From a bacterium (GTDB taxonomy: Bacteria; Zhuqueibacterota; Zhuqueibacteria; Residuimicrobiales; Oceaniaggregativiventaceae): 64,000 nucleotides of DNA. The stretch is taken from the NCBI GenBank assembly GCA_029565675.1, contig JAKQNP010000003.1, forward strand, positions 79,197-143,196, given 5' to 3'. A model generated the notes under the pieces. That model was not told where the DNA came from, made no database searches, and saw only the letters and a program-made list of their open reading frames with translations. Shown here piece after piece: positions 24,659 to 51,239 of this stretch; positions within the stretch are counted from its first letter, which is position 1; the number at the start of each line of letters is the position of its first letter. The position numbers were made by a program, and so were the translations under genes.

Positions 24659-26248
24659 TTATTTGATCAGCGTGACTCTTTGCATTTGGCGTTCAGTCGG
24701 CGTTTTCAGCTGCACCAGATAAACGCCGGTTGGCAATTCGGCACCGCGGTCATCGAGACCATTCCAATAGATGCGGTGCGAATCAGCGCTTTGCACTCCC
24801 TGAACCAACAGGCGAACCCGCGTACCGAGCAGTGAATAAACCGCCAATTCCACCTCGGATTCGGTCGGCAGATCATATGACAGCCAGGTCCCGGGATTGA
24901 ACGGATTGGGAAAATTCGGATGCATGGCAAACGATTCCGGAATCTGGGTGTTCGGCGTTGCCATTGGTGTCGCTTCAACGGGTCCATGCCAAACCGTTAA
25001 GCCGTTGTAATCCTGATCTTGCAGAAAATAGAAATAGGTCAAGCCGTTGGTCACCCGCCGATCGATAAAAGAGTAATCGCGAGGCTCGGTGGAGGTGCCG
25101 GCAGCTGGAATCAATTGTGAGTTCAGGCGTTGGCGATCACCGTCCTTGGCCGTGCCGCGGTAGATGTGGTATCCGGCACAATCGATTTCCGATTGGGTTC
25201 GCCAGGTCAACAATATTTTCCCATCCCCCGCCTGCGCGACAAAAGATTCGAGTTCAACCGGCAAGGAGTAATCGCCGCCGCCGAAAGTCCAGGTTTCCTG
25301 GTTGTAGTCGGTTGCGGTCATGCCGCCAAAGAGCACCAGATAGCGCGAACCGTCCAGGCTGGTTTCAGCCAATCCAAGTTCTTTCCTGGCCGCAGGCTTG
25401 ACCGCATTGGGATCTTGAACCCATAGATTGGCGCTGAGGTCGTAGACCCAGGTCTCATCATCCAGGGTTCCGTCATTGCCGCCGAACAACAAGACTTGAT
25501 CGTCGCCGATATAGGCCATCTTGTGACTGATTCGCGGGGTAGGATGACTTCCGAACGCTTTTTGGGTCCAGGTATTGGCACTGAGATCAAAAAGCCAGGT
25601 TTGATCGCTGTGTCCGGAGCTGGAGTTGCCGCCGAACAACAAAACCTGGTCGTCGCCGATATAAGCCAGATCATGCCAGATCAATGCTGGCGGTTTGGCG
25701 ATCGGATTGAGCTGCGTCCAACTGTTGGCGGCTGCATCATAGAGCCAGGTTTCATCGTTGCGGTTTGTGCCCACCAGTCCGCCGTACAGCAGAGCCTTTG
25801 AGCCGCCGATATAGGCCATGGCTGTCGCAGACCGCGCGCTCGGTTTGGTGGCGGCAGGAATTGCCGTCCAGGTGTTGCTGCCGTAATCGTATTCAAAAGT
25901 ATCGTCGAGGCCAACGCCGCCGGAATTCAGACCTCCGAAAAGAACCGCCTGATCCGAGCCCACATAGGCCAGTGCATGGGCGTTGCGGGCGCCGGGTTTG
26001 GGATCGGGATTGCGGTTGGACCAACTGTTGGCGCTGAGGTCATAAACCCAGGTTGCATCAATCACTCCCGCGCTCGTGCTGCCGCCAAAGAACAGCACAC
26101 AGTCGCCTCCGATATAGCAAAGACCATGTAAACTCGTTGCTCCGGGATTCGACGCCGGACTTTTAAGCGTCCAGTCATCCGCGGGCTGAGCGATTCCGGC
26201 GCCAAATACCAGCAACAGGCCAAGAAAAGTGTAACCAATTTGCCGCAT
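24659..26248 (-). CDS. Kelch/galactose-oxidase-type beta-propeller protein with a T9SS C-terminal sorting domain
   Basis: Repeated W..S..W...P.P..R..H..AYIGDD.VLLFGG units. The C-terminus has NFPNPFNPGTWLSYDL ... GVYLVQLKT ... RVTLIK (Por_Secre_tail). Start moved to the ATG at 26248 with a GAGGGAGGG SD. Confidence 0.85.
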   Translation of the reverse strand: MRQIGYTFLGLLLVFGAGIAQPADDWTLKSPASNPGATSLHGLCYIGGDCVLFFGGSTSAGVIDATWVYDLSANSWSNRNPDPKPGARNAHALAYVGSDQAVLFGGLNSGGVGLDDTFEYDYGSNTWTAIPAATKPSARSATAMAYIGGSKALLYGGLVGTNRNDETWLYDAAANSWTQLNPIAKPPALIWHDLAYIGDDQVLLFGGNSSSGHSDQTWLFDLSANTWTQKAFGSHPTPRISHKMAYIGDDQVLLFGGNDGTLDDETWVYDLSANLWVQDPNAVKPAARKELGLAETSLDGSRYLVLFGGMTATDYNQETWTFGGGDYSLPVELESFVAQAGDGKILLTWRTQSEIDCAGYHIYRGTAKDGDRQRLNSQLIPAAGTSTEPRDYSFIDRRVTNGLTYFYFLQDQDYNGLTVWHGPVEATPMATPNTQIPESFAMHPNFPNPFNPGTWLSYDLPTESEVELAVYSLLGTRVRLLVQGVQSADSHRIYWNGLDDRGAELPTGVYLVQLKTPTERQMQRVTLIK

Positions 26249-26531
26249 GAGCGACCCTCCCTCTAAACACACACGACGCCTGCGTATCTGTGGAAAATAC
26301 ACGCACAACGTGCCCATGATTTTTGCAGCAATGACGATGCGATCAGGAGCCTAAAAAGGCAAGGGAGAGGAACAGGGGGAAATGACCCATGCGCTTTTAT
26401 CTAAATGGATGCAATGCATTTGATCTGCGAATCGCATGCCAGCGATAAAGCAAGTCATTTAAAGATACAAAAAACTTGTGCAAAGCACAACATTATTATC
26501 AAAATTCTACCCGAAAACGAAACGGCACCTT

Positions 26532-28109
26532 TTACCTGACCAGGGTCACTTTGCGCGTTTGCGAAAAGGCCGGCGTTTTCAGCTGCACCAAATAGATGCC
26601 TGACGGCAAATTGGCACCGCGGTCATCCATGCCGTTCCAATAGAGCAGATGCGAATCGCCCTTTTGCACCTCTTGCACCAATGTGCGGACCCGGGCACCG
26701 AGGAGGGTAAAAACAGCCAACTCGACCTCGCACTCGCTCGGCAGATCATAGGCCAACCAGGTGCCGGGATTGAACGGATTGGGGAAATTCGCCTGCAGCG
26801 CAAAGGCGGTGGGAATTCCGCCGCTCGGCGCCGCCATCGGTGTGGCTTCGATCGGACCATACAGAGCCGTCAAACCGCTGTAATCCTGGTTTTCCAAATA
26901 ATAAAAATAGGTTTGGCCGTTGTTCGCCTGGTAATCGGTATAGTCGTAGTCGTGCGGTTGGGTCGAGGTGCCGGCACCCGGGATCAAGCGGGGATTCAGG
27001 CGCTGCCGTTCGCCGTCAGGTTCGGCGGCGCGATAGATATTGAATCCCGCACAATCGATTTCACTCTGGGTAGTCCAAATCAGTTTCACCTGGCTATCGC
27101 CCGCCTCAGCGGCAAAGGAAGCCAGTTCAACAGGCAAGGAAAAATCGCCGCCGCCAAAAGTCCAGGTATCGCCATTCCAGGAGAGAGAAACCAAACCGCC
27201 AAACAGCACCAGATAGCTGGAACCGTTCATGCTCGTCTCGGCCAATCCATGGTCACATCTCGCCGCAGGAGCCGTTGTATTGGCATCCTGAGACCATGAA
27301 TCGCTGCTGAGGTCATATACCCAGGATATATCGCTGCCGGAAAGGCTGCCGAACAGCAGGACTCGATCACCGCCCAGATAGGCCATTTTGTGCCCCACAG
27401 CTGCATCAGGTTTGGTGATCGGCGATTTTTGCGTCCAATTGTTGCCGCTCAGATCGAAAATCCAGGTATCGTCATACGCTCCGGCAACGTCGCCGCCGAA
27501 CAGCAAAACGCGGTCGTCGCCGATGTAAGCCAAATCGTGTGCCCAGCGGCTGGGAGGGCTGACAGATGGAGAGAGCTGCGTCCAGCTGTTCGATCCCGCA
27601 TCGTAGAGCCAGGTTTCGTCGTTGCGGTTTCCCAAAACGCTGCCGCCGAACAGCAACGCCTTTTGGCCGCCGATAAAGGCCATCGCGGTGTTATAGCGCG
27701 CCGAGGGAGCCGGCGCGGCAGCGATCGCCGTCCAGGTATTGCTGCTGTAATCGTATTCATAGGTAACGCCAAAATCCGTCCCATTGGACTTGCCGCCGAA
27801 CAGCACCGCCTGATCCGGGCCGACATATGCCATAGCGGCTAGTTGGCGGGGCACCGGACTGGTAGCGGGTTCACGGTCAGTCCAGGTGTTGTTGCTTAGG
27901 TCATAGATCCAGGTTTTCCCATTGAGGTCACCACCCGCCGTTTTTCTACCGAAGAGCAGAACGCGATCGGCCCCGACATAGCAGAGGCTGTGCAGGGACA
28001 ATTGTCCGGGATTCGGAACAGGAAATTTTTGCGTCCAATCATCCATAGACCATGCACTGCCGCCCAGAATCAGCATTGCACTTAAAAATATGTCGATCAT
28101 GCGCCTCAT
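26532..28109 (-). CDS. Kelch-type beta-propeller T9SS cargo protein, tandem paralog of 24659-26248
   Basis: Same architecture. The C-terminal ~200 aa are ~70% identical to the neighbour (PVELASFAAEAGD ... NFPNPFNPGTWLAYDL ... KVTLVR). Confidence 0.85.
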   Translation of the reverse strand: MRRMIDIFLSAMLILGGSAWSMDDWTQKFPVPNPGQLSLHSLCYVGADRVLLFGRKTAGGDLNGKTWIYDLSNNTWTDREPATSPVPRQLAAMAYVGPDQAVLFGGKSNGTDFGVTYEYDYSSNTWTAIAAAPAPSARYNTAMAFIGGQKALLFGGSVLGNRNDETWLYDAGSNSWTQLSPSVSPPSRWAHDLAYIGDDRVLLFGGDVAGAYDDTWIFDLSGNNWTQKSPITKPDAAVGHKMAYLGGDRVLLFGSLSGSDISWVYDLSSDSWSQDANTTAPAARCDHGLAETSMNGSSYLVLFGGLVSLSWNGDTWTFGGGDFSLPVELASFAAEAGDSQVKLIWTTQSEIDCAGFNIYRAAEPDGERQRLNPRLIPGAGTSTQPHDYDYTDYQANNGQTYFYYLENQDYSGLTALYGPIEATPMAAPSGGIPTAFALQANFPNPFNPGTWLAYDLPSECEVELAVFTLLGARVRTLVQEVQKGDSHLLYWNGMDDRGANLPSGIYLVQLKTPAFSQTRKVTLVR

Positions 28110-31416: not shown

Positions 31417-32565
31417 TCACATCGGGACAAAGTGGTTGGTGAGGCGAAAAGCCGTTGCGAGGTAGTCGGCAATGCGCTCGGCGGCGTGGCCATCACCATA
31501 AGGGTTTTGCGCCCGCGCCATTTCTTCATAAACTGCAGGATCGTTTAAAAGACGATCCGTTTCGGCTAGGATTCGATGCAGGTCTGTGCCGACCAGGCGA
31601 ACCGTACCGGCCTGCACTGCCTCCGGGCGCTCCGTTTCATCGCGCATGACCAGAACCGGTTTCCCCAACGAAGGTCCCTCCTCTTGAATACCGCCGGAAT
31701 CGGTTAGAATCAGATAAGAGCGATTCAGCAACGCCGCCAGGCGGCGATAGTCCACCGGTTGAATAAGATGCAATCGCTCAATTCCGGATAGAATTTCGTT
31801 AACCGGACTCTGGATATTCTGATTGAGATGCACTGGATAGACGACCTCGATATCAGGATGGCTTTCTACCAGAGCACGAAGGGCTGAACAGATCCGGCGA
31901 ATCGGTGCGCCGAAATTTTCCCGCCGATGGGCGGTTACCAGAATCAGGCGGTGACCTCTCGCGCAGAGAGAGTCGACAAAGTTCTGGTCAGGCTTGTGCT
32001 GCAATACCCAGTGCAAGGCATCGATGACTGTATTGCCAGTAACCGCGATTCTGGCATCCTCCACCCCTTCCTGCAAAAGGTTTTGCCGGTTGCCCTCGGT
32101 TGGAGCAAAATGGTAGGAAGCCACATTGCTGATCATCCGTCGATTGGCTTCTTCTGGGTAGGGTGAAAAGAGGTTAAATGTGCGCAATCCCGCTTCGATG
32201 TGGCCGACCGGAATAGCCGCGTAAAAAGCGGTTAAGGCGCCGATGAACGCAGTTGTGGTGTCTCCTTGTACCAAAACCAATTTCGGGCGCAATTCTTCCA
32301 AAACCTGACGAAATCCATGCACAGCGGATTCAGCGATTTGGTTGAGAGTTTGATTGGGCTGCATAATGTTCAGATCGATATCCGGTCGAATGCCAAACAA
32401 GTCCAAGACCTGATCCAGCATCTGGCGATGTTGTGAAGTCGAAACAACCGTCAATCGAAAACGCGGGTCATTCCGCAGCAACAACACAACCGGCGCCATT
32501 TTTATAGCCTCGGGGCGGGTACCAAAAAGAACCACCGTATTCAACGGCTTTTGGGAATCGGCCAC
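31417..32565 (-). CDS. wecB: UDP-N-acetylglucosamine 2-epimerase (non-hydrolysing)
   Basis: VVLFGTRPEAIKMAPVV ... STSQHRQMLDQVLDLFGIRPDIDLNIM ... HIEAGLRT pattern. Likely GTG start at 32565 behind an AAGGAG SD (ORF-track start 32589). Confidence 0.9.
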   Translation of the reverse strand: MADSQKPLNTVVLFGTRPEAIKMAPVVLLLRNDPRFRLTVVSTSQHRQMLDQVLDLFGIRPDIDLNIMQPNQTLNQIAESAVHGFRQVLEELRPKLVLVQGDTTTAFIGALTAFYAAIPVGHIEAGLRTFNLFSPYPEEANRRMISNVASYHFAPTEGNRQNLLQEGVEDARIAVTGNTVIDALHWVLQHKPDQNFVDSLCARGHRLILVTAHRRENFGAPIRRICSALRALVESHPDIEVVYPVHLNQNIQSPVNEILSGIERLHLIQPVDYRRLAALLNRSYLILTDSGGIQEEGPSLGKPVLVMRDETERPEAVQAGTVRLVGTDLHRILAETDRLLNDPAVYEEMARAQNPYGDGHAAERIADYLATAFRLTNHFVPM

Positions 32566-32635
32566 TCTGTCTCCTTTTTCACCAAGCATCTGCCATCGGC
32601 AACACCGGGGTCTTTATTGCTGGTCAATCAACTGG

Positions 32636-34426
32636 CTATTTGACCAAAGACAATTTAAGGGTGATATCTTGCGATTCAAACTGTATCCGGCAAAAATAAA
32701 GTCCGCTTGCCACAGGATTTTTTTGGTCATCGATTCCCGACCAGAAAATGCGGTGTTCTCCAGCATCTGCATCTCGATCCATCAACACAGCGATTTTTTC
32801 ACCGGCCAAATTGGTGATGGTGATTTGGGTGTGACCGTGTTCGGGCAAAGAAAAATGAAGCCACGTTCCTTCATTGAATGGATTGGGATATATGCCGGCA
32901 ACGATCCAATTCTGTGGTGCAGCGCCAATGAATACTCTATCGGATAGGGTGCTCGCGCCATCGGTGTCGATTTGATTGAGACGGTAATAGAGGGCGGTTG
33001 ATGGAGCGCTCTTATCGATATAGGTGTAGCGGTTCAATGCGCTGCTGGTTCCATGCCCGGGGACAAAGCCGATCTTTTCAAAATAAAGACCGTCGCTTGA
33101 TCGACAAATCTCGAATCCGAGATTATTCAACTCAGATGCGGTTTGCCAGGTCAAGCAAATACCGTTGGATTGACGAGAAAGGGACAAGCTTACCAGCTCT
33201 ACGCTGACCAAAGCGGTGTTTCCCTCCAGCGCCCTGATATAGCTGTCGTTAGAACCGCAAACCACATCCTCTGCACCATTGCCATTCAGATCACCAGCCG
33301 CCGCAATAGTTTTGATATCACCGCCGGCTTTAAATGTCCAGATAATTTCGCCTGAACGACCGCAAAGAGCAGCTGCCGTGTTGTCTCCAGTACCAACCGC
33401 GGCATCCGGAACCAAATCACCGTTGATATCCAGCAATGTACAAACCGTCCAGATATCACCATGAAAGGCAGTGTCCCATATTTTTTTGCCATCTATGCCT
33501 GAAAGAGCATAAACATGATCATCTGATGAACCGGCGATGCAATCCTGTCGGCCATCGCCATTGATATCATCCACGGCAGTAACGCATTGAATGTCTGCTC
33601 CTGCAGCAAAAGACCAGAGTTGTTGCCCCGTTTTGCCAGATAGGCAATGGACGCGGTCAGCAGCGGTGCCGGCGAGGCAATCATTGATCCCATCTGCATT
33701 GACATCTGAAATTTTTTCGACGCTCCAAACATCGGAAGAGGTCGAAAAACTCCAAAGCTGACGAGAAACACTGCTCTGCGCTTGGGCAGAAAGACAATAG
33801 ACCCGATCATCGGCAGCACCGGCAAAGCAGTCTGCATAGCCATCCTTATTGATATCCCCTGCATAGACAACTGACCAGACGTCACCCTGCGTGTTGAATT
33901 GCCAGAGGAGCACACCAACACCCAAACTGGCTCCTGAAATACAACAGATCCGGTTATCGCCTGTGCCAACCAGAGCATCAGCTTTTTTATCGCCGTTGAT
34001 ATCAGGGAGCGAAGCCACAGTCCAAACATCGCCGGTGACGCCGTATGACCAAATCCACTCGCCGAGTTTGCTGGGATCGCCGGAAATGCAATAAATCGTG
34101 TTGTCGGCAGCGCCGGCCAGACAATCAGCCTTGCCATCGCCATTGATATCGCCGAGCGACGCCACTTGCCAGACATCGCCACTGACTGTCGTCGACCACA
34201 ATTCAGCTCCTGCAGCCTTGCCGCCGCCTTCCAGACAATAAATCCGGTTATCTGAAGCGCCGGCAAAGACATCCACAATCCCGTTGCCACTCACATCGCC
34301 AGTCATTTGAACGCTGTTGACATACCAATCCGTGGTAGTGCTCCAAATAACAGCAGCATTGTTTTGCGCTGCTGCAGCTGCAGCAAACCACATGGTTATC
34401 CAGACAATCTTTTGTGCGAACTGCAT
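32636..34426 (-). CDS. FG-GAP/PQQ-like beta-propeller repeat protein with a T9SS C-terminal sorting domain
   Basis: At least 8 repeats of GD.NGDG.AD...G..D..IYC.SG. The C-terminus has IYPNPFNEGTWLHFSLP ... GLYFCRIQ ... LSLVK. Start moved to the ATG at 34426 (signal peptide MQFAQKIVWITMWFAAAAAAQ, AAGGAG SD). Confidence 0.8.
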   Translation of the reverse strand: MQFAQKIVWITMWFAAAAAAQNNAAVIWSTTTDWYVNSVQMTGDVSGNGIVDVFAGASDNRIYCLEGGGKAAGAELWSTTVSGDVWQVASLGDINGDGKADCLAGAADNTIYCISGDPSKLGEWIWSYGVTGDVWTVASLPDINGDKKADALVGTGDNRICCISGASLGVGVLLWQFNTQGDVWSVVYAGDINKDGYADCFAGAADDRVYCLSAQAQSSVSRQLWSFSTSSDVWSVEKISDVNADGINDCLAGTAADRVHCLSGKTGQQLWSFAAGADIQCVTAVDDINGDGRQDCIAGSSDDHVYALSGIDGKKIWDTAFHGDIWTVCTLLDINGDLVPDAAVGTGDNTAAALCGRSGEIIWTFKAGGDIKTIAAAGDLNGNGAEDVVCGSNDSYIRALEGNTALVSVELVSLSLSRQSNGICLTWQTASELNNLGFEICRSSDGLYFEKIGFVPGHGTSSALNRYTYIDKSAPSTALYYRLNQIDTDGASTLSDRVFIGAAPQNWIVAGIYPNPFNEGTWLHFSLPEHGHTQITITNLAGEKIAVLMDRDADAGEHRIFWSGIDDQKNPVASGLYFCRIQFESQDITLKLSLVK

Positions 34427-34452
34427 GACCATACTCTCCTTAAAACAAACTT

Positions 34453-35295
34453 TCAAGAACCCCAGCCATGCCAAAAGGTCAAGCCAATTCTTGTATAACG
34501 ATATTCTGAATCATTGGGATTTTCATAATCACCGCTGCGCGGGGTGACTTTGCCATTCAGAAATTCAACAAACAGATCAAAATCCAGATCATTCCAGGGT
34601 TTGACCCTAATCCCCAGTCCAGCCTCAGTTTTGTTGTTCCAGTAATCGCCGTTTATATCGGTCATCAGATAACTGACCCAATAGGCGTCAATCGCAGTCT
34701 TGTATAAGCGCAACAACCGAAAGCCAACTTTGCCATTCACATACAGGATGCCATTTCTGCGATCATTGCGAAAGTAAAAAAAATCGCCATAAATCTCATC
34801 CCACAGGGTGAGTGGGACTGTCGTATTCCAACGATGGACAGCTTCGCCGTCAAAACCTTGCCAAAATATCAATCCGGCCCGAACATCCGTATAGTCGGCA
34901 CCATCAGGCAATGTGCTCTCATCAGTTTTCATATAATGTCCATTGACAAGCTCCGTACAAAGAGCAAGATAAATCCGCTGAAAGAAGCGCAAGCGCGTAC
35001 CCACCATCAATTCAGCGCGGTTATTCCAAAAATCGCGATTGGCATCGCTGCCGATGCGTTGTTTGAAGTAAAGATCCATCGTACTGATGCCGAAAAGACC
35101 AAACCGCACACCTTCCAAAGCCTGCGCCATGGTGATGGTGTTGTCCTCGAGTTTGCCCATGTTTATGGTTTCATCGTAGACCTCGGCAAAAAGACGCGGA
35201 CGGAATTCGGCTTGTGCTGCAACCTGCACTACCGACGACAGCATAACCGCCATCAAAAACATAAACAGATGATGAATTGCGAATCGCTTTTTCAT
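34453..35295 (-). CDS. Secreted aromatic-rich protein, candidate periplasmic/outer-membrane (beta-barrel?) partner of the adjacent GT2 synthase
   Basis: Signal peptide MKKRFAIHHLFMFLMAVMLSSVVQVAAQA. Rich in W/Y/F/D/N with alternating hydrophobic patterns. 4-bp overlap with the upstream GT2 gene (translational coupling). Confidence 0.55.
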   Translation of the reverse strand: MKKRFAIHHLFMFLMAVMLSSVVQVAAQAEFRPRLFAEVYDETINMGKLEDNTITMAQALEGVRFGLFGISTMDLYFKQRIGSDANRDFWNNRAELMVGTRLRFFQRIYLALCTELVNGHYMKTDESTLPDGADYTDVRAGLIFWQGFDGEAVHRWNTTVPLTLWDEIYGDFFYFRNDRRNGILYVNGKVGFRLLRLYKTAIDAYWVSYLMTDINGDYWNNKTEAGLGIRVKPWNDLDFDLFVEFLNGKVTPRSGDYENPNDSEYRYTRIGLTFWHGWGS

Positions 35296-36587
35296 AGACG
35301 AGTTCTTTCTTTTTCCGTGTCAGTTTCAGGAATAAGAAAACGCTCGGTCTTGTCCCAAATGCCAACGCGATGTCGGCGGGCATCAAAAAACAAACCGCGA
35401 AAAACGATAAAAAGCCAAAGCTGACAATAGGTAAAATACATCAAGATGGTGTAGAAAATGTTCTTGGGCGAATCTTCATTCTCGTAGGACAAAACCAAAA
35501 GAATTTCCATAATGAACAAAACAAAAGCGGAAAGCCAGACAGCAAAATAGGGGCCAGGCACTTTGAGAGCGACAATTCCCAATCCACTCAAGACGAAGAG
35601 CAAATGCGACAGCACGATGGCCAATAAAAAAAGATAATAAAGGGCGAACAAATAAAAGAACTCAGTCACCAGAAATCGACTCTTGAGGCGAACGGCATCC
35701 ATGGCAAATTTGCGCAACACATAATTGTTGCCCCGTACCCAACGTGTGCGCTGCCGTATCCATACTTTTAATGTCTCCGGTTCTTGCTCCCAGGTTACAC
35801 TGAGAGGAATAAACTTTATGTAGAAGCCTTTTTGATAGATTCGCACACTCAACTCTGAATCCTCAGTTATCGCTTTTTCATCCCAGCCACCGCATTGCTG
35901 CAAAACCGACCTTTTAATAATATAATTGGTGCCGGGTAAGATCGCGATTCGCGACAGGCAGAATCGCCCTGCCTGCAAGATCCACTGGAAGGCCAGTGTT
36001 TCGATGTTGATTAATCGTGTTAATCCGTTTCGATTTCGATTGAGTGTTCGAAATTTTCCAATAACTGCCGCACATTTTTCATCAGTCAACAAATGAGGAA
36101 CAAGTTTGCGCAAAGAATCGGATTCCGGACGATTGTCAGCGTCATAAATGGCGATGGTTTCGTATTTGCAGTGTTCCAGTCCTTGGTTGAGTGCATGCGC
36201 TTTGCCATGCCCGGTTTGACCCTTGGCCAAATTGATCAACGACACACGGGAATCTTTTTTTATATAATCTTCGACTATCGTCTGTGTGGCATCATGTGAG
36301 CCATCATTGATAACAAGAATTTCTAGACGATCAGACGGATAATCGAGCTTTGACAGACGATCGATTGTGGACGCGATTACACGCTCTTCATTATGGGCAG
36401 GGACCATAATCGATATCGCAGGCCAGGATTGTAGGCTGTGATTGTCTTGTGCATCGATGCGCAACAAATGCTGGCGATAGCGATATCCGGCAAAAGCCAG
36501 GATCACCTGGTATCCAATCATCAGCCAAATGATCACAACGCTTACGAGAAAGAGAGAATCCAGGACCGGGTGTACCAGAGGGATCAT
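35292..36587 (-). CDS. Processive family-2 glycosyltransferase (cellulose/PNAG/chitin-synthase-like, PgaC/BcsA/NodC class), integral membrane
   Basis: N- and C-terminal TM helices flank a GT2 core with D, DxD (IYDADN), TED (ITEDSE) and QxxRW (RQRTRW) motifs. Confidence 0.85.
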   Translation of the reverse strand: MIPLVHPVLDSLFLVSVVIIWLMIGYQVILAFAGYRYRQHLLRIDAQDNHSLQSWPAISIMVPAHNEERVIASTIDRLSKLDYPSDRLEILVINDGSHDATQTIVEDYIKKDSRVSLINLAKGQTGHGKAHALNQGLEHCKYETIAIYDADNRPESDSLRKLVPHLLTDEKCAAVIGKFRTLNRNRNGLTRLINIETLAFQWILQAGRFCLSRIAILPGTNYIIKRSVLQQCGGWDEKAITEDSELSVRIYQKGFYIKFIPLSVTWEQEPETLKVWIRQRTRWVRGNNYVLRKFAMDAVRLKSRFLVTEFFYLFALYYLFLLAIVLSHLLFVLSGLGIVALKVPGPYFAVWLSAFVLFIMEILLVLSYENEDSPKNIFYTILMYFTYCQLWLFIVFRGLFFDARRHRVGIWDKTERFLIPETDTEKERTRL

Positions 36588-36677
36588 TCATCCTCCATGG
36601 TTCTTGATAGGGTACTGAAAATCACTTGGGCAAGTCTTTTCCCCAAACTGCACCAAAATCGCAATCACAATAACTCT

Positions 36678-39600
36678 TCAGGCAGTTTGCCCAGATCGCT
36701 TGCGCAGGGTGTGGCGAACATAGATAATGATGAGCGAAAAACCGGCAAAAAAACCGATCAAGACAATGAGACCCGACAAGAACAAACTGGCGAATTTTAA
36801 AAACTGTGTCCCACTGCTCATGGTAAAAATGATCGCCTGATGCTCACCGGAAGGCAGTTTGATCGAATATCCCAACTCTCCAACAGTTCCAGTGGCTGAG
36901 AATTTTTTCCCGTCTAGAAGAATGGCACGGGGCTGTTCGTTTAGGATGACCCAATTTGGCATGGGCGAGGAATAGTGAATGGCAACTCCGCGGCCAATTA
37001 GATGGGCTGAGATCAGTTCGCCGGACAGGTCAACGATACGAACCGATGATTCAAATCGATTCATCATACTCTTCAAACGTCCGACCGTCTGCAGACGATG
37101 GTGCCCGATGGGCAACGTCACCCGGCCGCGATCATAGACTGGCCAGATATCGCCATCCAGCAAGACATCCTGATGTCGTTCGCCATCGACGCGCACGATG
37201 ACCGTATAAGATGTTTCGATTTCCCAAACGCACTCATCCAATCTTTCCTTTGCCTGGGCAGCAAAGGCATTCGGCAACAACGGAAAATCGACTTGATAGA
37301 TGCTGGCTTCAGAAAACAAAGAAACCCGGTTAACTTCATTCGCAGCAATTGCGGTATTGCGATACAGCTCGAGTCCACTCAACTGAGCAGTCGGACTGTG
37401 ACTGACTTGACTCTGACGATAGGGTTCCACAGCGATATCGAGAACCAGCGGTAAATCTCCATATATTTGGGCCATTTTTTTAAACCGTTCCGGCCCAAGA
37501 TGCCAGGTTTCTCGTGGATCTTCAAACTGCAAGGTGTAGGGGAAATCTTTCCTCAATTCAAGAATTTTTTTAATATCGATGCCCAAAGATTTGGCTGTAT
37601 TCGCTGCAATTTCACTGTCCATCGAAGTGATCATAAGATCCCAATCGCTCTGATGTTTTTTTTGCAATTCAAACAAGAAACCGAGAAAGTGGCGGTACAA
37701 ATCGACTACCTGTTCGGACCGAAAACGGAAAAAACTTGCAGCTGCATTCGAATTGTGCTGCCAAAAGTAGGGCGATCGAGGATTGAATAGAGCCAACGGA
37801 TCAAATCCGGCTTGCTTAAAAAAGACCTGGCGAATATCCTGGTTCATCGGCGTGAAAGCTTCTGGTGCATCAAATCTAAGAGCCGATTCATAGTTGAGCT
37901 CTACCGAATTAATTCCATCCCAATCAAAGGACAACAAAAGGTTCTGCAATTCATTAAAGACCGCTTCACGGCAGGCCTCGATATTCAACGCCATGAGTTT
38001 GCGCCAACCGACGACTGCATCCATGCCGAGTGCATTCTTCTCTCGCCACTCTGGGAAACGCGTCCAGAACACATCATTGACATGCGGCAATTCCAACCAC
38101 AAGTAAACAACCATCGCATTTTGATGGGCCAGTCGAATCAGCCGTTCATAGTCGTATTGATAGTCTGCATAAAAATGCCAACCCGATACATAGATCGCTC
38201 GCACACCGTTGCTGCGCCACATTTTGATCAGATCCTCGATGCTGATATCTTCTCGGTCACCAGGTTCAAAATAGACTTCAATAGCACGGCGATGAACCAT
38301 GGGCTTGAGCGAAAAGTGTCGATTGAGCAGATCGATCAAATAGGGAAATCGGGCATAACCGCCATCGGTCACCGGATCCAGCAGGGCACCAAAATGGAGA
38401 TATTTGCCTTCGCCAAATTCACCCCCCGTTACAACAGGCTGTGCAGAATCTGCGGTAGAATAATAAACAATGAAATTTGCATCAGTATCGAAACCCTGCA
38501 ACTCTCCGCCCGGTCGCCAAATGATTTCAACCTGCGGGTAATATTCGTCAACAACAGAATTGATCAGCCGATTTTTCTCTGTACGATACACTCCAATCAT
38601 TTCGCTCATCTGCGAAACCTGTTCCATTACCACATTCAGACCTTTTTGTACACCACTCATTATAAACAGGCGTTGCTGTTCAGTCAGGATGCGAGCGGCA
38701 CTTTGAGGAATGATCAATAGATTGATATGGCTGGGAATTTCAAATAAGCTCTGACAAACCAAAGAATCCGCATCAATACCAACACTTGAAAGAGCACAAA
38801 ACCAGTTGCTTTGACTGCGGCCAAGCTGTTCAGCAGACGAGGTATCGATTAAAATAGCCGCACAGACAGGATTGGACTGGGAGTCAAACAACGGATCGGT
38901 TTTACCGAATACCGATTCAGACAGGTCAGAAAGACTAAATTGTCCGAGTCCTTTTCTCCCTTTAGGATATCCTGGGGCTTGTTTCTGCAGCACATACATC
39001 CATCCCAAAGGTACGTCAATCGTTCGAGTTATTCTACCCGTAACCAGCGTATCAGAAATAGTTTGCCGTTGCAGCTTACCGTTTTCATCGATAAAAAATT
39101 CATGAACTCGACAACCTTGGCAATCGAGCTCGACTGTTCCACTGCCGGTTAACACACAATAATTAGGAGCCTGAACGATATTTTGGGTCATTCTTGGACT
39201 GGAGAATTGGTAAGAGAGCTCTTTCATACCCTGAACGATCTTTTTCAAAACAGACAGATCGATAAATGGATGAAAAAAGAAGCTGGCGATTCCATCCCGA
39301 ACCAGCAATTGATGCTGAGCAGCAGTTAGGATAGCAGCGGCTTCCTGCTGGTCGAGAGGAACATAACCGAGGTTCTCCGGAATGATCCGTCCTCCAGACA
39401 TATGACGGTTGATCAAATAGGGTACAAGTTGATCTGAGCCATGCAGATCAAGTGTTTGCCGGCGTTCATAAGCAGTGCTGAAATAGCGATTGATCACTCC
39501 GTAATCGAGTTGAGACGCTGCATAATGGGGTGTTTCCCAGGTTACCGGGTAAAGCTCGGCTCGTTCCATTTCGTTCAGAGCCGTCTCGATTCTTTGCCGC

Positions 39601-41654
39601 ACATATTCCCGCGAATCGCTGAACAGCGGTCCGTTGGATAGAGCATCCCAAAATTCATAGTCGGCAGTGCTTTCTCCGCGCAATTGATGCGTTGATCCGT
39701 GTAAAACAATGGTTCCACCTGAGCGGACGAGCTCTTGAAGCGCATCAATAAACTCGGGTCGATCAGAAATCGACACTGCAAGATTAGACTCAGGATCGAG
39801 ATAAAAGGGTACCACTGAGACAGAAAAAGGTACGGATTCGGCTTTCAGCAGACGCGCAATCTTGCGCAGGACTTTAGGATCGGTCAGGGGATGAACATCC
39901 TCGATGCGCAACAGAGCCAACGGTTTCTGTGCATGATATTCTCGCAGAATATCGTGCAATAGATCGCTGAAAACGATATGACGGCCGCCTTCAATAACAA
40001 AAGCTGTCGGCAGATCGGCAATATACCAAAATTGACCACTCTGGACAATATAGGGCCATTGCTGATCCCCTTTCACAAGCCAGGACCAAACATGACAGCG
40101 TTCTTCATCGTTGATCTTGATCGCATTCCAGGCCGGATCGACTTTGACCAGATCGATCTGTTTATAACGCACCGATATTCCCTCATCATGGCGTTTTTCG
40201 ATAAAACTCATGCCATGTGAATTGCCAGTCATGTTTAGAAATTGCTCCACTCCATTGTTCATCCATACCAACGTGCCAGGATAGCGATCGATGGTCTGCA
40301 AAAATTCAACCGGATAATCAAACTGCGGATCGACGCCTACACAAAAGAGGGCGTCGCTGTTTTCGATCACCTGGTCCAGCGAATCAGGCACTGGTGCAAT
40401 CGGCAGCAAGGAAACTCGAGCCCGAAAATGGGTGAGCAGACTGGCGACCTGGCGGGCATCGTTTTCACCCAAAGGATCAAAGCAGACAACGACGCGACAA
40501 GTCGTGCGTTCCTCTACAGCGGCATAAAATGCATCCCAAGCCTGAAGTTTGTCAAGCTGGTGGGTATCATAGATGTCGATATCTGGCAATCCAGCGCGTC
40601 GGGCTGCCCGTATTGCAGCCGCCAAATCACCAGGTCGCACTACAACTGCACCAAAGGGAGTAATTTCCAAATGAGCGACAATCCGTGCACGACCATTGAC
40701 CTGAGAGAGGACAGTTCGAGCTGCGCCCTCGACCCATTCAGGTGTGAATGTTTGTTTCTGTTTTACTTCATTCTCCCATTGTTGCCACATAAATTCCATT
40801 ACCAGCCAATCAGGTCTATCTTCGCCCCGCAATAAACCGGCAAGATCGAAACCTGTTAACTGCTTTTGCTGTTCTGGAGTCAATACAGCTCCATCGCTAT
40901 GAGCGCTGACGATATGGGTGACACTGGCTATCCGCTTATGCCTGTGAATCAGAGCAATCGAAGCTTGCAGGGTCTGCAACAATCCAGAGGAAGAGGACAT
41001 CAAGCTGTCTGCAGCCGCAAGGCAGCTGCCGCAGTAGCAACGGTTTTGGTTCCAGGCAATGACCGGCTCAGCTATATCGATGCCATCGAGATCGGGATAA
41101 CGGCGCAAGATTTCGTCGATAAACCCCAGCCACCATTCACGGACTTTAGGATTGGCGGGGCAAAGAAAGGCACTTTCATTGTCAGGTTTATACTCTTTCC
41201 CATCAGCTTTTCGGACGCGCCAATCAGGATTTTTTTGCCAGGCCAATGCATGCTGAAAGGCAGGAAGCCAAGCCATGATTCGAATCTGCCTAGGGTGAGC
41301 GGCGCGCAACATATACTTGAGCAAATCGCGACGCCCATAATCGGCTTGCTCATTAAGAGTATAATCAGTACGATACTTGGCACCATGGACCGGATCGTAT
41401 GCTTTAAAAAAGATGGTGTTGATACCCCTATCGCTCCATTCAGCAACCAGAGATTCACAAAAGCGGGCGATATTGTCGGGATCGGTGTAATAGTAGCTCG
41501 GATCGAAACGCACAGCTTGGATGGTACCGTCCTGCGGATCAAGAAGCAGGTCGCTGGCAAATTCTGCATATAGATTACCAACGCTGCAAAAAATAGCAGC
41601 GATCAACAACAGAATTGAATTTTTCATTCGACTCATCAAAAGCCCAATTTGCAT
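36678..41654 (-). CDS. Giant (1658 aa) multidomain polysaccharide-modifying protein: signal peptide, two GHL10/DUF187-like TIM-barrel glycoside-hydrolase-like domains flanking a DUF2334-like (polysaccharide deacetylase-fold) domain, C-terminal TM anchor
   Basis: An N-terminal signal peptide. Residues ~40-260 have GINTIFFKAYDPVHGAKYRTDY ... HPRQIRIMAWLPAF (GHL10-like). Residues ~610-830 have LRIEDVHPLTDPK ... GGTIVLHGSTHQ (DUF2334-like). Residues ~1130-1330 have GVRAIYVSGWHFYADYQ ... MVVYLWLELPHV (second GHL10-like). The C-terminus has FLSGLIVLIGFFAGFSLIIIYV (TM). Family names are from memory of motif patterns and are not verified. Confidence 0.75.
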   Translation of the reverse strand: MQIGLLMSRMKNSILLLIAAIFCSVGNLYAEFASDLLLDPQDGTIQAVRFDPSYYYTDPDNIARFCESLVAEWSDRGINTIFFKAYDPVHGAKYRTDYTLNEQADYGRRDLLKYMLRAAHPRQIRIMAWLPAFQHALAWQKNPDWRVRKADGKEYKPDNESAFLCPANPKVREWWLGFIDEILRRYPDLDGIDIAEPVIAWNQNRCYCGSCLAAADSLMSSSSGLLQTLQASIALIHRHKRIASVTHIVSAHSDGAVLTPEQQKQLTGFDLAGLLRGEDRPDWLVMEFMWQQWENEVKQKQTFTPEWVEGAARTVLSQVNGRARIVAHLEITPFGAVVVRPGDLAAAIRAARRAGLPDIDIYDTHQLDKLQAWDAFYAAVEERTTCRVVVCFDPLGENDARQVASLLTHFRARVSLLPIAPVPDSLDQVIENSDALFCVGVDPQFDYPVEFLQTIDRYPGTLVWMNNGVEQFLNMTGNSHGMSFIEKRHDEGISVRYKQIDLVKVDPAWNAIKINDEERCHVWSWLVKGDQQWPYIVQSGQFWYIADLPTAFVIEGGRHIVFSDLLHDILREYHAQKPLALLRIEDVHPLTDPKVLRKIARLLKAESVPFSVSVVPFYLDPESNLAVSISDRPEFIDALQELVRSGGTIVLHGSTHQLRGESTADYEFWDALSNGPLFSDSREYVRQRIETALNEMERAELYPVTWETPHYAASQLDYGVINRYFSTAYERRQTLDLHGSDQLVPYLINRHMSGGRIIPENLGYVPLDQQEAAAILTAAQHQLLVRDGIASFFFHPFIDLSVLKKIVQGMKELSYQFSSPRMTQNIVQAPNYCVLTGSGTVELDCQGCRVHEFFIDENGKLQRQTISDTLVTGRITRTIDVPLGWMYVLQKQAPGYPKGRKGLGQFSLSDLSESVFGKTDPLFDSQSNPVCAAILIDTSSAEQLGRSQSNWFCALSSVGIDADSLVCQSLFEIPSHINLLIIPQSAARILTEQQRLFIMSGVQKGLNVVMEQVSQMSEMIGVYRTEKNRLINSVVDEYYPQVEIIWRPGGELQGFDTDANFIVYYSTADSAQPVVTGGEFGEGKYLHFGALLDPVTDGGYARFPYLIDLLNRHFSLKPMVHRRAIEVYFEPGDREDISIEDLIKMWRSNGVRAIYVSGWHFYADYQYDYERLIRLAHQNAMVVYLWLELPHVNDVFWTRFPEWREKNALGMDAVVGWRKLMALNIEACREAVFNELQNLLLSFDWDGINSVELNYESALRFDAPEAFTPMNQDIRQVFFKQAGFDPLALFNPRSPYFWQHNSNAAASFFRFRSEQVVDLYRHFLGFLFELQKKHQSDWDLMITSMDSEIAANTAKSLGIDIKKILELRKDFPYTLQFEDPRETWHLGPERFKKMAQIYGDLPLVLDIAVEPYRQSQVSHSPTAQLSGLELYRNTAIAANEVNRVSLFSEASIYQVDFPLLPNAFAAQAKERLDECVWEIETSYTVIVRVDGERHQDVLLDGDIWPVYDRGRVTLPIGHHRLQTVGRLKSMMNRFESSVRIVDLSGELISAHLIGRGVAIHYSSPMPNWVILNEQPRAILLDGKKFSATGTVGELGYSIKLPSGEHQAIIFTMSSGTQFLKFASLFLSGLIVLIGFFAGFSLIIIYVRHTLRKRSGQTA

Positions 41655-41876: not shown

Positions 41877-41920
41877 AACAAAAAAGAAATGGGCGATCAC
41901 CGGAATGGTGTATCGCCCAT
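41877..41920 (-). terminator. Rho-independent terminator downstream of the M2 peptidase gene
   Basis: A perfect 10-bp stem AATGGGCGAT/ATCGCCCATT (41887-41896/41911-41920). On the minus strand it is followed by UCUUUUUU (A run at 41877-41885). Confidence 0.7.
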
Positions 41921-51131: not shown

Positions 51132-51239
51132 TAAAAACTATAGGCAGCGATAATTCCCAAGTTATTACCCGTTGCGGACGGGGAAATGGGTCATTGAATG
51201 TCGATCCGCCTCCTCAATGCTAAACTCTGGAGGTCGAAG

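What the first reader, a model, noticed from the sequence alone, without database searches (positions are those of the whole stretch)
34453..41654. Putative synthase-dependent exopolysaccharide locus: giant modifying enzyme + processive GT2 synthase + coupled secreted aromatic-rich protein
Three co-directional genes sit 90 bp and -4 bp apart. The first is a 1658-aa, membrane-anchored extracytoplasmic protein with two glycoside-hydrolase-like TIM barrels and a deacetylase-fold domain. The second is a PgaC/BcsA-class processive GT2 with a QxxRW motif. The third is a signal-peptide protein translationally coupled to the synthase. This is the logic of Pga/Pel/Ica/Bcs systems (synthase + polymer deacetylase/hydrolase + export component). 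The arrangement and the fused modifying enzyme match none of those canonical operons as I know them. UDP-GlcNAc 2-epimerase (wecB) lies 2.2 kb downstream, consistent with an N-acetylhexosamine polymer. No c-di-GMP receptor domain (PilZ/GGDEF) is visible, so regulation would differ from Pga/Bcs.
Basis: partly seen in the sequence, partly recalled or inferred. Interest (0 to 1): 0.75.

Follow-up and report, generated by a model that had tools for sequence, protein, structure and literature searches.

The report
Uncharacterised exopolysaccharide synthesis-and-export gene cluster
This is a real five-gene cluster that most likely makes, trims and exports a sugar polymer (probably built from N-acetylmannosamine) across both membranes of an uncultured bacterium; it is an undescribed variant of a known kind of biofilm-polysaccharide machine, and its two-gene core occurs in hundreds of species.

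Summary
Three minus-strand genes (1658, 431 and 280 aa) lie 90 bp and -4 bp apart.

- **Cassette.** It has five genes (31417-41654): giant protein, GT2 synthase, small protein, T9SS beta-propeller, WecB.
- **Giant protein.** It has a signal peptide and a C-terminal membrane anchor. It fuses two paralogous PgaB-hydrolase-like TIM barrels with a complete YdaL-type DUF2334 (deacetylase-family) module.
- **GT2.** It carries all processive-synthase motifs but is not a PgaC, BcsA or NfrB equivalog.
- **Small protein.** It is a confidently predicted 12-stranded outer-membrane beta-barrel from an unnamed family. Other members carry N-terminal TPR repeats and sit beside NfrB-like synthases and wecB.
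- **Conservation.** In 80 species genomes the giant-protein/GT2 pair is invariant (64/64 testable). Barrel and propeller accompany the full-length form in 20/25 loci. WecB lies within 9 kb in 30/73.

Best reading: a synthase-dependent system for a partly de-N-acetylated hexosamine polymer, probably ManNAc-based, with no recognisable c-di-GMP receptor. I rate it a new variant of a known kind. No function has been tested experimentally.

The parts
41879..41920 (-). Terminator-like GC-rich hairpin plus T-run just after the upstream M3-like peptidase gene. It marks the probable 5' boundary of the cassette's transcription unit (285-bp intergenic region, 41655-41939).
   Evidence: Read directly from the sequence. 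The peptidase was identified by Pfam.
36678..41654 (-). Giant periplasmic polymer-modifying protein (1658 aa). It has an N-terminal signal peptide and a single C-terminal TM anchor (hydrophobic core at aa 1626-1644).
   Evidence: ORF; 52 homologues; TM scan; domain evidence in the rows below.
40500..41537 (-). N-terminal GH-like TIM barrel (aa ~40-385). D193 and E196 are invariant.
   Evidence: Pfam GHL6 36.8 bits (above cutoff), with weaker GHL10 and DUF4015 hits. hhalign to the E. coli PgaB C-terminal domain gives prob 50%, E 1.6e-4, placing E196 next to the PgaB 'FHDD' stretch. Conservation.
39210..40502 (-). Complete YdaL-type module: an alpha/beta 'MID' domain (aa 385-575) plus DUF2334 (aa 575-815). 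E585, D586, H652, H656, H710 and H795 are invariant.
   Evidence: Pfam DUF2334, 166 bits. hhalign of MID and of DUF2334 against whole standalone DUF2334 proteins of Ralstonia and Burkholderia gives prob 99.8-100%; against B. thuringiensis, 90.8% and 99.9%. JGI names homologues 'YdaL'. Residue conservation.
38385..39167 (-). Beta-sandwich, a disordered linker and an alpha/beta domain (aa 830-1090). No family assignment.
   Evidence: AF2 model m5e559e71528b, pLDDT 87.4. No Pfam hit.
37245..38342 (-). C-terminal GH-like TIM barrel (aa ~1105-1470), a paralogue of the N-terminal one. The residue equivalent to E196 (E1252) is conserved in only 18 of 25 homologues.
36684..37247 (-). C-terminal beta-sandwich (aa 1470-1611) followed by the TM helix and a short basic cytoplasmic tail (aa 1614-1657).
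   Evidence: AF2 secondary structure; hydropathy scan.
35292..36587 (-). Membrane-embedded processive-type GT2 synthase (431 aa). Motifs: D95, D149-A-D151, T241-E-D243, Q279-R-T-R-W283 and a C-terminal W411-D-K-T-E-R416.
   Evidence: Pfam and NCBIfam; PDB hits to BcsA; 26% identity to E. coli PgaC over 372 aa, E 5e-30; motifs conserved at >=97% in 68 orthologues, and TM helices at 12-30, 321-339, 348-366 and 377-395.
34453..35295 (-). 12-stranded outer-membrane beta-barrel (280 aa), translationally coupled to the synthase. It carries a twice-repeated loop motif D-x-N-x-D-[FY]-W-N-N-[RK]-x-E (aa 84-95 and 213-224).
32636..34432 (-). FG-GAP/PQQ-like beta-propeller with a signal peptide and a T9SS C-terminal sorting domain. 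The ORF extends to a TTG at 34474; an ATG at 34432 gives a typical signal peptide.
   Evidence: Pfam FG-GAP_3 83 bits and FG-GAP 65 bits. TIGR04183 Por_Secre_tail 29.3 bits, above the cutoff of 23. Present in 20 of 25 full-length-type loci.
31417..32589 (-). WecB, the non-hydrolysing UDP-GlcNAc 2-epimerase that makes UDP-ManNAc. It is the last gene of the cassette.
   Evidence: TIGR00236 equivalog, 494 bits against a cutoff of 210. Same position in L002, L003/4 and L005 and in 13 species loci.

Best explanation
This is a five-gene, synthase-dependent exopolysaccharide system of a diderm bacterium. The steps below are proposed, and each is marked as shown or inferred.

1. **Precursor.** WecB makes UDP-ManNAc from UDP-GlcNAc. 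The enzyme's identity is shown; that this system uses its product is inferred.
2. **Polymerisation.** The inner-membrane GT2 polymerises a beta-linked N-acetylhexosamine chain, most likely ManNAc-based. It pushes the chain through its own TM channel (inferred from motifs and topology).
3. **Modification.** The giant protein is exported by Sec and tethered beside the synthase by its C-terminal TM helix. Its YdaL-type DUF2334 module partly de-N-acetylates the nascent chain. Its two PgaB-hydrolase-like TIM barrels and its beta-sandwich domains bind and trim the chain (inferred).
4. **Scaffold.** With about 1600 periplasmic residues, the giant protein probably also serves as the trans-periplasmic scaffold. 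TPR domains provide this in the Pga, Bcs, Pel and Nfr systems (speculative).
5. **Export.** The translationally coupled 12-stranded beta-barrel exports the polymer across the outer membrane. The fold is shown by prediction; the role is inferred from genomic context.
6. **Surface step.** The T9SS-secreted beta-propeller binds, tethers or processes the polymer at the cell surface (speculative).
7. **Regulation.** No c-di-GMP receptor domain is present, so control differs from Pga, Bcs, Pel, Nfr, Yda and Pss.
For: - **Gene order and coupling**.
- **GT2.** All processive-synthase motifs are invariant in 68 orthologues and TM helices are predicted. The closest characterised relatives are PgaC (E 5e-30) and BcsA.
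- **Small protein.** It is a 12-stranded OM barrel.
- **Conservation in species genomes.** GT2 lies directly after the giant gene in 27/27 full-length loci, and is present in 37/37 short-form loci (adjacent in 33). The barrel and the propeller are each present in 20/25 full-length loci. WecB lies within 9 kb in 30/73 loci, always at a cassette edge when on the same strand.
- **Independent recurrence of the same parts as separate genes.**
  - Soil contig L096 has DUF2334 protein, GH5, TPR-barrel (a homologue of the small protein, prob 99.4%), NfrB-like GT2 (40% identity to E. coli NfrB) and WecB.
  - L095, L103 and L104 have barrel, GT2 and WecB.
  - The Ralstonia megaplasmid has an NfrB orthologue, a TPR protein of the same barrel family (prob 96.5%), wecB and a DUF2334 protein.
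- **Literature.**
  - NfrB is proposed to use WecB-made UDP-ManNAc, and wecB-nfrB linkage was used as evidence for this (bioRxiv 10.1101/2021.10.01.462733).
  - The Listeria Pss polymer is beta-1,4-ManNAc with Gal side groups, and its deacetylase is named PssB (PMC13492145, PMC6307706).
  - ydaLMN are required for a Bacillus EPS (PMC13274460).
Against: - Nothing has been tested experimentally, and no polymer is known.
- WecB is absent from about 60% of the related loci examined. UDP-ManNAc also feeds other glycans.
- To my knowledge DUF2334 has never been shown biochemically to be a deacetylase. hhalign found no similarity to the PgaB CE4 domain, so 'deacetylase' rests on family and clan annotation plus an invariant Asp/His set.
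- A 12-stranded barrel is smaller than the known EPS porins. From my own knowledge, PgaA, BcsC and PelB have 16 strands and AlgE has 18.
- The short-form pairs in Bacteroidota, Acidobacteriota and others have no linked barrel (0/31). In those lineages the product may stay periplasmic or use an unlinked exporter.
- The GT2 is below every equivalog cutoff, so its sugar specificity is open.
Confidence: 0.7

Rival explanations
1. The machinery is the same, but the product is a GlcNAc polymer (PNAG-like or chitin-like). WecB would then be only a neighbour serving another pathway.
For: The best characterised sequence relative of the GT2 is PgaC/IcaA (168 bits; 26% identity). The TIM barrel best matches the PgaB PNAG hydrolase domain. 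WecB is missing from most related loci.
Against: - WecB sits at the edge of the cassette in 30/73 loci, on either side of it, which is far more than expected for a gene with one or two copies per genome.
- The barrel family and DUF2334 proteins recur beside wecB with a different synthase type.
- The PgaC equivalog cutoff (422 bits) is missed by a wide margin, and no PgaA or PgaD is present.
Confidence: 0.17
2. It is a synthase-dependent cell-envelope glycan that is not a free exopolysaccharide. Examples would be a lipid-linked ManNAc O-antigen or common-antigen-like polymer, or a periplasmic or cell-wall glycan that the giant protein remodels.
For: - The core pair occurs without any linked outer-membrane component in 31/31 short-form loci.
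- From my own knowledge, Salmonella O:54 is a ManNAc homopolymer made by a GT2 synthase with a plasmid-borne wecB homologue.
Against: - In the window's clade a dedicated barrel is translationally coupled to the synthase. Its relatives carry TPR repeats ahead of the barrel, the architecture I know from EPS export porins.
- No WecA-type initiating transferase, O-antigen ligase or lipid-carrier gene was among the genes annotated in the window's cassette or in the loci L001-L006, L012 and L013. The 80 species loci were screened only for the five cassette proteins.
Confidence: 0.08
3. It is a catabolic or uptake locus. The giant protein would degrade an environmental polysaccharide, and the barrel would be an oligosaccharide uptake porin of the 12-stranded KdgM/NanC kind.
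Against: - The invariant partner is a biosynthetic processive GT2 (64/64 testable loci).
- WecB is biosynthetic.
- No transporter, kinase or regulator typical of utilisation loci was among the annotated genes of the window's cassette or of loci L001-L006, L012 and L013.
Confidence: 0.03

Closest known systems
E. coli / Bordetella PgaABCD (PNAG) system
   Same: - It has the same logic: an inner-membrane GT2 synthase, a periplasmic protein combining a deacetylase with a TIM-barrel hydrolase or binding domain, and an outer-membrane barrel.
- The GT2 aligns with PgaC over 372 aa (26% identity, E 5e-30).
- The N-terminal barrel shows weak sequence similarity to the PgaB C-terminal domain.
   Different: - The PgaC equivalog score is 168 against a cutoff of 422.
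- The deacetylase-family domain is DUF2334, not the PgaB CE4 domain (no similarity).
- It has two TIM barrels and several extra domains, and is anchored by a C-terminal TM helix rather than being a lipoprotein.
- The barrel has 12 strands, no TPR and no similarity to PgaA.
- There is no PgaD and no c-di-GMP input.
- WecB linkage points to ManNAc rather than GlcNAc.
E. coli NfrB-NfrA-YbcH with WecB (N4 phage receptor glycan)
   Same: - It is a synthase-dependent system whose substrate is proposed to be WecB-made UDP-ManNAc. Genomic wecB linkage was used as evidence for that (bioRxiv 10.1101/2021.10.01.462733).
- The window's barrel belongs to the family that occupies the NfrA position next to NfrB-like synthases and wecB in soil contigs and in Ralstonia.
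- Those Nfr-like loci also carry DUF2334 proteins.
- The GT2 shares a C-terminal 'WDKT' motif with NfrB.
   Different: - The GT2 is only distantly related to NfrB (25% identity over 292 aa with many gaps, E 1e-4) and has no MshEN c-di-GMP domain.
- The barrel lacks TPR repeats and shows no detectable similarity to E. coli NfrA itself.
- There is no YbcH.
Bacillus subtilis ydaJKLMN and Listeria pssA-E (c-di-GMP-dependent EPS; the Listeria polymer is beta-1,4-ManNAc with Gal)
   Same: - Residues 385-815 of the giant protein are a complete YdaL-type DUF2334 protein, and JGI names homologues YdaL.
- The DUF2334 gene is directly followed by a PgaC/BcsA-like GT2, as in ydaL-ydaM.
- The Listeria polymer is ManNAc-based and PssB is listed as its deacetylase (PMC6307706, PMC13492145).
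- ydaLMN are required for EPS (PMC13274460).
   Different: - No BcsB-like YdaN/PssD was found. The Pfam scans returned only GHL6, GHL10, DUF4015 and DUF2334, and nothing for the C-terminal half.
- There is no degenerate-GGDEF receptor (YdaK/PssE) and no GH8 (YdaJ/PssZ).
- This is a diderm organism with an outer-membrane barrel and a T9SS protein.
- The YdaL module is fused to two TIM barrels.
- Direct comparison with YdaL, YdaM, YdaN or PssB sequences could not be made. That PssB and YdaL are DUF2334 proteins rests on the JGI naming and on my own knowledge.
Pseudomonas PelA (multidomain hydrolase plus deacetylase of the Pel system)
   Same: It is a single large periplasmic protein that combines a glycoside-hydrolase TIM barrel with a deacetylase domain and acts on a hexosamine polymer before export (PMC12022489).
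   Different: There is no sequence relationship to PelA families in any search. The synthase here is GT2 whereas, as I recall it, PelF is a GT4 enzyme. There is no PelB/PelC-type exporter and no PelD.

Membership tests
Synthase-dependent exopolysaccharide secretion systems (general kind) | Inner-membrane processive GT2 with D, DxD, TED and QxxRW motifs and a TM channel | tested here: met
   D95, D149xD151, T241-E-D243 and Q279RxRW283 are conserved at >=97% in 68 orthologues. There are 1 N-terminal and 3 C-terminal predicted TM helices. Hits to BcsA and PgaC.
Synthase-dependent exopolysaccharide secretion systems (general kind) | Periplasmic polymer-modifying enzyme (deacetylase and/or hydrolase) encoded with the synthase | tested here: met
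Synthase-dependent exopolysaccharide secretion systems (general kind) | Outer-membrane beta-barrel export porin | tested here: met
Synthase-dependent exopolysaccharide secretion systems (general kind) | TPR scaffold attached to or accompanying the porin | tested here: not met
   The window's barrel protein has no TPR and no Pfam hit. Remote family members do carry N-terminal TPR repeats.
Synthase-dependent exopolysaccharide secretion systems (general kind) | c-di-GMP receptor (PilZ, degenerate GGDEF, MshEN or PgaD-type) | tested here: not met
   No such domain appears in any of the five proteins by Pfam or NCBIfam. An unrecognised receptor cannot be excluded.
Pga (PNAG) system | PgaC/IcaA equivalog synthase (TIGR03937) | tested here: not met
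   168 bits against a cutoff of 422.
Pga (PNAG) system | PgaB: CE4 deacetylase plus GH153 domain | tested here: inconclusive
Pga (PNAG) system | PgaA TPR plus 16-strand porin (TIGR03939) | tested here: not met
   No NCBIfam hit. hhalign against E. coli PgaA gives prob 0.2%.
Nfr system (NfrB/NfrA/WecB) | NfrB-type GT2 with a C-terminal MshEN domain | tested here: not met
   25% identity over 292 aa, E 1e-4. The protein has 431 aa and nothing that matches the C-terminal part of NfrB.
Nfr system (NfrB/NfrA/WecB) | Outer-membrane partner of NfrA type | tested here: inconclusive
   The barrel is homologous to TPR-barrels that sit beside NfrB-like GT2 genes (prob 99.4%; Ralstonia 96.5%). There is no detectable similarity to E. 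coli NfrA.
Nfr system (NfrB/NfrA/WecB) | Dependence on, or genomic linkage to, WecB | tested here: met
   wecB is the last gene of the cassette and is linked in 30/73 related loci. Only linkage was tested, not functional dependence.
Yda/Pss system (Bacillus ydaJKLMN, Listeria pssA-E) | YdaL/PssB-type DUF2334 protein next to the GT2 | tested here: met
   Pfam DUF2334. The two-domain module is complete. JGI names homologues 'YdaL'.
Yda/Pss system (Bacillus ydaJKLMN, Listeria pssA-E) | YdaM/PssC-orthologous GT2 | not testable with these tools
   No Bacillus or Listeria sequence could be retrieved.
Yda/Pss system (Bacillus ydaJKLMN, Listeria pssA-E) | BcsB-like subunit (PssD/YdaN), degenerate-GGDEF receptor (PssE/YdaK) and GH8 (PssZ/YdaJ) | tested here: not met
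   No BcsB, GGDEF or GH8 Pfam hit in the cassette.
T9SS type A cargo (for the beta-propeller) | C-terminal Por_Secre_tail sorting domain | tested here: met
   TIGR04183, 29.3 bits against a cutoff of 23. Pfam PF18962 scores 24.8, just under its cutoff of 27.

The most novel reading that the evidence does not exclude
The cassette defines a further, so far unnamed family of synthase-dependent exopolysaccharide systems. It is spread over more than ten phyla of mostly uncultured diderm bacteria and makes a partly de-N-acetylated poly-ManNAc-type polymer.

In this family an inner-membrane-anchored protein replaces the TPR scaffold and bridges the synthase to the exporter. That protein has about 1300-1700 residues and carries DUF2334, PgaB-like barrels and carbohydrate-binding domains. 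The exporter is a minimal 12-stranded porin, the smallest known for polysaccharide export, with a sugar-binding loop motif (DxNxDFWNN). A T9SS-delivered beta-propeller completes the system at the cell surface.

As a corollary, DUF2334 (YdaL/PssB) would be the dedicated de-N-acetylase family for ManNAc polymers across the Yda/Pss, Nfr-like and this system.
Probability: 0.35. Interest if true: 0.75.

Novelty: new variant of a known kind. Interest (0 to 1): 0.6.

Why it matters
Synthase-dependent polysaccharide systems (cellulose, PNAG, Pel, alginate and, recently, Nfr) are central to biofilm biology. Only a handful of architectures are known, nearly all from Proteobacteria and Firmicutes.

This cassette would add an architecture from poorly studied lineages. 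Record titles name KSB1, Zixibacteria and Fibrobacterota, and the two-gene core is also found in Bacteroidota, Acidobacteriota, Elusimicrobiota and others (386 species genomes).

It also gives testable functions to three unannotated families:
- DUF2334, as a candidate ManNAc-polymer deacetylase;
- a PgaB-like TIM-barrel family;
- an unnamed 12-stranded outer-membrane barrel family.

Finally, the shared parts (DUF2334 proteins, WecB and, among the diderm systems, the barrel family) suggest that the Bacillus/Listeria Yda/Pss systems, the Nfr-like systems and this system belong to one wider group of ManNAc-polymer machines.

Tried and rejected
**Searches that found nothing**
- PDB sequence searches with the giant protein, its family profile and the small protein gave nothing useful.
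- Pfam on four sub-segments of the giant protein found nothing for aa 195-580 or 810-1658.
- The PDB sequence search with the propeller was uninformative.
- Foldseek against PDB added only generic GH TIM barrels.

**Attempts to obtain B. subtilis YdaL/M/N or Listeria Pss sequences for direct comparison all failed**
- The third homologue search, with the DUF2334 domain alone, returned only fragments and no Bacillus YdaL.
- The DUF2334 alignment was too diverse for a genome scan.
- A tblastn of the C-terminal half against plasmids found no match.
- The AlphaFold-database fold library was unavailable.
- As a result, the idea that the C-terminal half equals YdaN could not be tested. No BcsB signal was seen in it.

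**Hypotheses tested and not supported**
- The barrel is an NfrA or PgaA homologue: not supported at the sequence level for the E. coli proteins.
- DUF2334 is detectably related to the PgaB CE4 domain: not supported.
- The small hypothetical protein after the Ralstonia DUF2334 gene is a barrel homologue: rejected.
- Short-form loci carry another linked exporter: not supported. Their neighbours are unrelated housekeeping genes.

**Technical failure**
- The first TPR-barrel alignment was too diverse for the metagenome scan. A three-sequence alignment worked.

Full report
**Observation**

- 36678..41654 (1658 aa);
- 35292..36587 (431 aa);
- 34453..35295 (280 aa).

They are separated by 90 bp and by a 4-bp overlap. 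Two more co-directional genes follow closely. The first is a 598-612 aa protein at 32636..34432/34474. The second is wecB at 31417..32589, about 46 bp further on. Then comes a 218-bp gap before topA.

Upstream, a 285-bp intergenic region begins with a hairpin plus T-run behind an M3-like peptidase gene. The consensus promoter and terminator scan gave nothing above background inside the cassette.

Exact copies of the proteins are deposited from unclassified 'bacterium' MAGs. There they are annotated only as 'hypothetical protein' or 'glycosyltransferase'. Relatives carry KSB1 and Zixibacteria labels.

**The synthase**

The 431-aa protein hits the membrane-type GT2 Pfam families. Its best NCBIfam matches are PgaC/IcaA (168 bits) and CelA (107 bits), both far below the equivalog cutoffs. 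Its best PDB relatives are BcsA chains.

It aligns with E. coli PgaC over 372 residues (26% identity, E 5e-30). It aligns only weakly with E. coli NfrB (E 1e-4).

In 68 orthologues from species genomes these residues are at least 97% conserved:
- D95, D149-x-D151, T241-E-D243 and Q279-R-x-R-W283;
- a C-terminal W411-x-K-T-x-R416.

A hydropathy scan gives one N-terminal and three C-terminal TM helices. From my own knowledge, the last motif resembles the FxVTxK gating loop of BcsA. NfrB proteins have 'AWDKT' at the same place.

This is therefore a processive, membrane-embedded synthase of its own orthologous group.

**The giant protein**

Pfam finds GHL6/GHL10 at residues 68-194 and DUF2334 at 580-809 (166 bits). 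It finds nothing elsewhere.

Profile-profile comparison of sub-alignments shows that residues ~40-385 and ~1095-1420 are paralogous (97.8%, E 8.7e-13).

An AlphaFold model of residues 830-1658 is confident (pLDDT 87.4, pTM 0.80). It shows, in order:
1. a beta-sandwich;
2. a disordered linker;
3. an alpha/beta domain;
4. a (beta/alpha)8 barrel;
5. a second beta-sandwich;
6. a terminal TM helix.

The N-terminal barrel has weak direct sequence similarity to the E. coli PgaB C-terminal domain (prob 50%, E 1.6e-4). That alignment puts the invariant E196 beside the PgaB 'FHDD' stretch. The equivalent residue of the C-terminal barrel, E1252, is conserved in only 18 of 25 homologues. The N-terminal barrel is therefore the better candidate for an active hydrolase, and the C-terminal one may mainly bind the polymer.

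Residues 385-815 correspond to an entire standalone DUF2334 protein. This includes that protein's N-terminal alpha/beta domain. The match to the Ralstonia and Burkholderia proteins is 99.8-100%; to the B. thuringiensis protein it is 90.8% and 99.9%. JGI names such proteins YdaL, and NCBI names some of them 'polysaccharide deacetylase family protein'.

E585, D586, H652, H656, H710 and H795 are invariant. This fits a CE4-like Asp/His/His metal site, but that is an inference. hhalign found no similarity to the PgaB CE4 domain, and I could not model this module.

With a signal peptide and a single C-terminal TM helix, the protein is a periplasmic, inner-membrane-tethered enzyme.

**The small protein**

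Many homologues end in an aromatic residue. Two loops carry the repeated motif D-x-N-x-D-[FY]-W-N-N-[RK]-x-E.

An exhaustive profile search found 460 representatives at E<=1e-3. Many are proteins of 390-1400 aa with this barrel at the C-terminus and TPR repeats in front. From my own knowledge, that is the architecture of PgaA, BcsC, PelB and NfrA.

The contexts of such TPR-barrels are telling:
- Soil contig L096 reads DUF2334 protein, GH5, TPR-barrel, NfrB-like GT2, WecB. Its TPR-barrel matches the window's barrel at 99.4%, E 3e-21. Its GT2 is 40% identical to E. coli NfrB and, at 597 aa against 745, too short to hold NfrB's C-terminal MshEN region.
- L095, L103 and L104 read barrel, GT2, WecB.
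- Ralstonia megaplasmids carry an NfrB orthologue (39% identity), a TPR protein, wecB and a DUF2334 protein. The TPR protein matches the TPR-barrel profile at 96.5%.
- E. coli NfrA and PgaA themselves show no barrel similarity.

**The other two genes**

The protein at 32636..34432 is an FG-GAP/PQQ-like beta-propeller. It has a signal peptide and a T9SS type A sorting domain (TIGR04183 above cutoff). I found no structural or functional precedent for it.

WecB is a clear equivalog (494 bits against a cutoff of 210).

**Conservation**

Eight contexts came from the protein look-ups. A further 80 of 386 species genomes came from the genome scan. These 80 were analysed with local phmmer and hmmsearch.

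| Form of the giant protein | Loci | GT2 directly downstream | Barrel | Propeller | WecB within 9 kb |
|---|---|---|---|---|---|
| Full-length | 32 | 27/27 testable | 20/25 | 20/25 | 22/32 (13 downstream, 5 directly upstream) |
| Short form (lacks the N-terminal barrel) | 41 | present in 37/37 testable, adjacent in 33 | 0/31 | 0/31 | 8/41 |

- Record titles for the full-length form are KSB1-like, Fibrobacterota, Planctomycetota, Desulfobacteraceae and some 'Eubacteriales'-labelled MAGs.
- Record titles for the short form are Bacteroidota, Elusimicrobiota, Acidobacteriota, Ignavibacteriota, Syntrophobacter, Chromatiales and Chlorobiaceae.
- Neighbours of the short-form pairs are unrelated housekeeping genes.

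The invariant core is thus the giant protein plus GT2. WecB linkage is frequent but not universal.

**Mechanism**

My best explanation (confidence about 0.7) is a synthase-dependent exopolysaccharide system.

*Shown by computation*
- the identities and folds of the parts;
- their topology signals;
- their conserved linkage.

*Inferred*
- The GT2 polymerises and translocates a beta-linked HexNAc chain.
- WecB supplies UDP-ManNAc to the GT2. This follows the same linkage argument used for NfrB in bioRxiv 10.1101/2021.10.01.462733. It also fits the ManNAc backbone of the Listeria Pss polymer, whose deacetylase is named PssB (PMC13492145, PMC6307706).
- The DUF2334 module partly de-N-acetylates the chain.
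- The PgaB-like barrels bind and trim it.
- The barrel exports it.

*Speculative*
- The very large tethered protein replaces the TPR scaffold and bridges the periplasm.
- The T9SS propeller tethers or processes the polymer at the surface.

No PilZ, GGDEF, MshEN or PgaD-like element is present. Regulation must therefore differ from the c-di-GMP-controlled models.

**Rivals**

- A GlcNAc polymer with wecB as a bystander (0.17).
- A non-secreted or lipid-linked envelope glycan (0.08).
- A catabolic or uptake locus (0.03).

The main weaknesses of the preferred model are these:
- There is no experimental evidence at all.
- Most related loci lack wecB.
- DUF2334 has no demonstrated activity.
- The barrel is unusually small for a polysaccharide exporter.

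**Comparison and novelty**

The system works like Pga, Nfr and Yda/Pss but fails the membership tests for each:
- The PgaC, PgaA and CelA equivalog thresholds are not met.
- The GT2 is not NfrB-type.
- No BcsB-like, GGDEF or GH8 partners are present.

Full-text searches for DUF2334 found only two incidental mentions. Searches on ManNAc with synthase-dependent systems found no description of this architecture.

I rate it a new variant of a known kind, of moderate-to-good interest (0.6). The reasons are that its core is widespread, that it assigns testable roles to three unannotated families, and that it links several ManNAc-polymer systems through shared parts.

Noticed in passing
window 12737..14824 (-): A 695-aa protein fuses a GT2 domain with CoA_binding_3 and a partial Bac_transf (polyprenyl-phosphate sugar transferase) C-terminus. 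This is an unusual fusion of a glycosyltransferase with an initiating-transferase-like module.
   Followed up: no
window 24659..26317 (-) and 26532..28109 (-): Two tandem paralogous Kelch beta-propeller proteins carry a FlgD_ig/T9SS-type C-terminal domain ending in the same '...NFPNPFNPGTW...' tail as the cassette's propeller. The window is rich in T9SS cargo; 59476..61344 (-) is another.
   Followed up: partly
L010 (Ralstonia wenshanensis CP076412.1, record 1441495-1449945), and 136 Ralstonia megaplasmids in all: An Nfr-like cluster in a plant-associated genus: NfrB orthologue, TPR-barrel protein, wecB, a 150-aa hypothetical protein, a DUF2334 protein and a 295-aa hypothetical protein, with a GGDEF gene nearby. 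This suggests that DUF2334 proteins are regular partners of WecB-dependent synthases.
   Followed up: partly
L096 5588-13291 (soil metagenome contig Ga0070711_100000002): This is an 'unfused' version of the same parts list: DUF2334+TIG protein, GH5, TPR-barrel, NfrB-like GT2 and WecB. At 597 aa the GT2 is too short to hold NfrB's C-terminal MshEN region.
   Followed up: yes
L044-L093 (short-form loci, e.g. L088 8890-14098): In Bacteroidota, Acidobacteriota, Elusimicrobiota and others, a ~1310-1360-aa form of the giant protein lacks the N-terminal TIM barrel. It occurs as an isolated two-gene pair with the orthologous GT2, among housekeeping genes and with no linked outer-membrane component.
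   Followed up: partly
L034 15149-15850 and L040 15330-16037: In the 'Eubacteriales'-labelled full-length loci, wecB sits directly upstream of the giant gene. A conserved 233-235-aa protein with no Pfam hit follows the GT2, in the position the barrel holds elsewhere.
   Followed up: no
L006 10001-16233: A divergent giant protein (Big_13 + DUF2334, 1655 aa) is followed directly by a 422-aa member of the barrel family, with no GT2 in between.
   Followed up: no
window 51198..53417 (+) and 53444..56992 (+): A 739-aa protein with no Pfam hit is followed by a 1182-aa DUF7507/CARDB protein. Their function is unknown.
   Followed up: no
window 2905..4059 (-): A LapB-like protein (TPR plus LapB zinc ribbon). 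This is consistent with an LPS-bearing diderm envelope.
   Followed up: no
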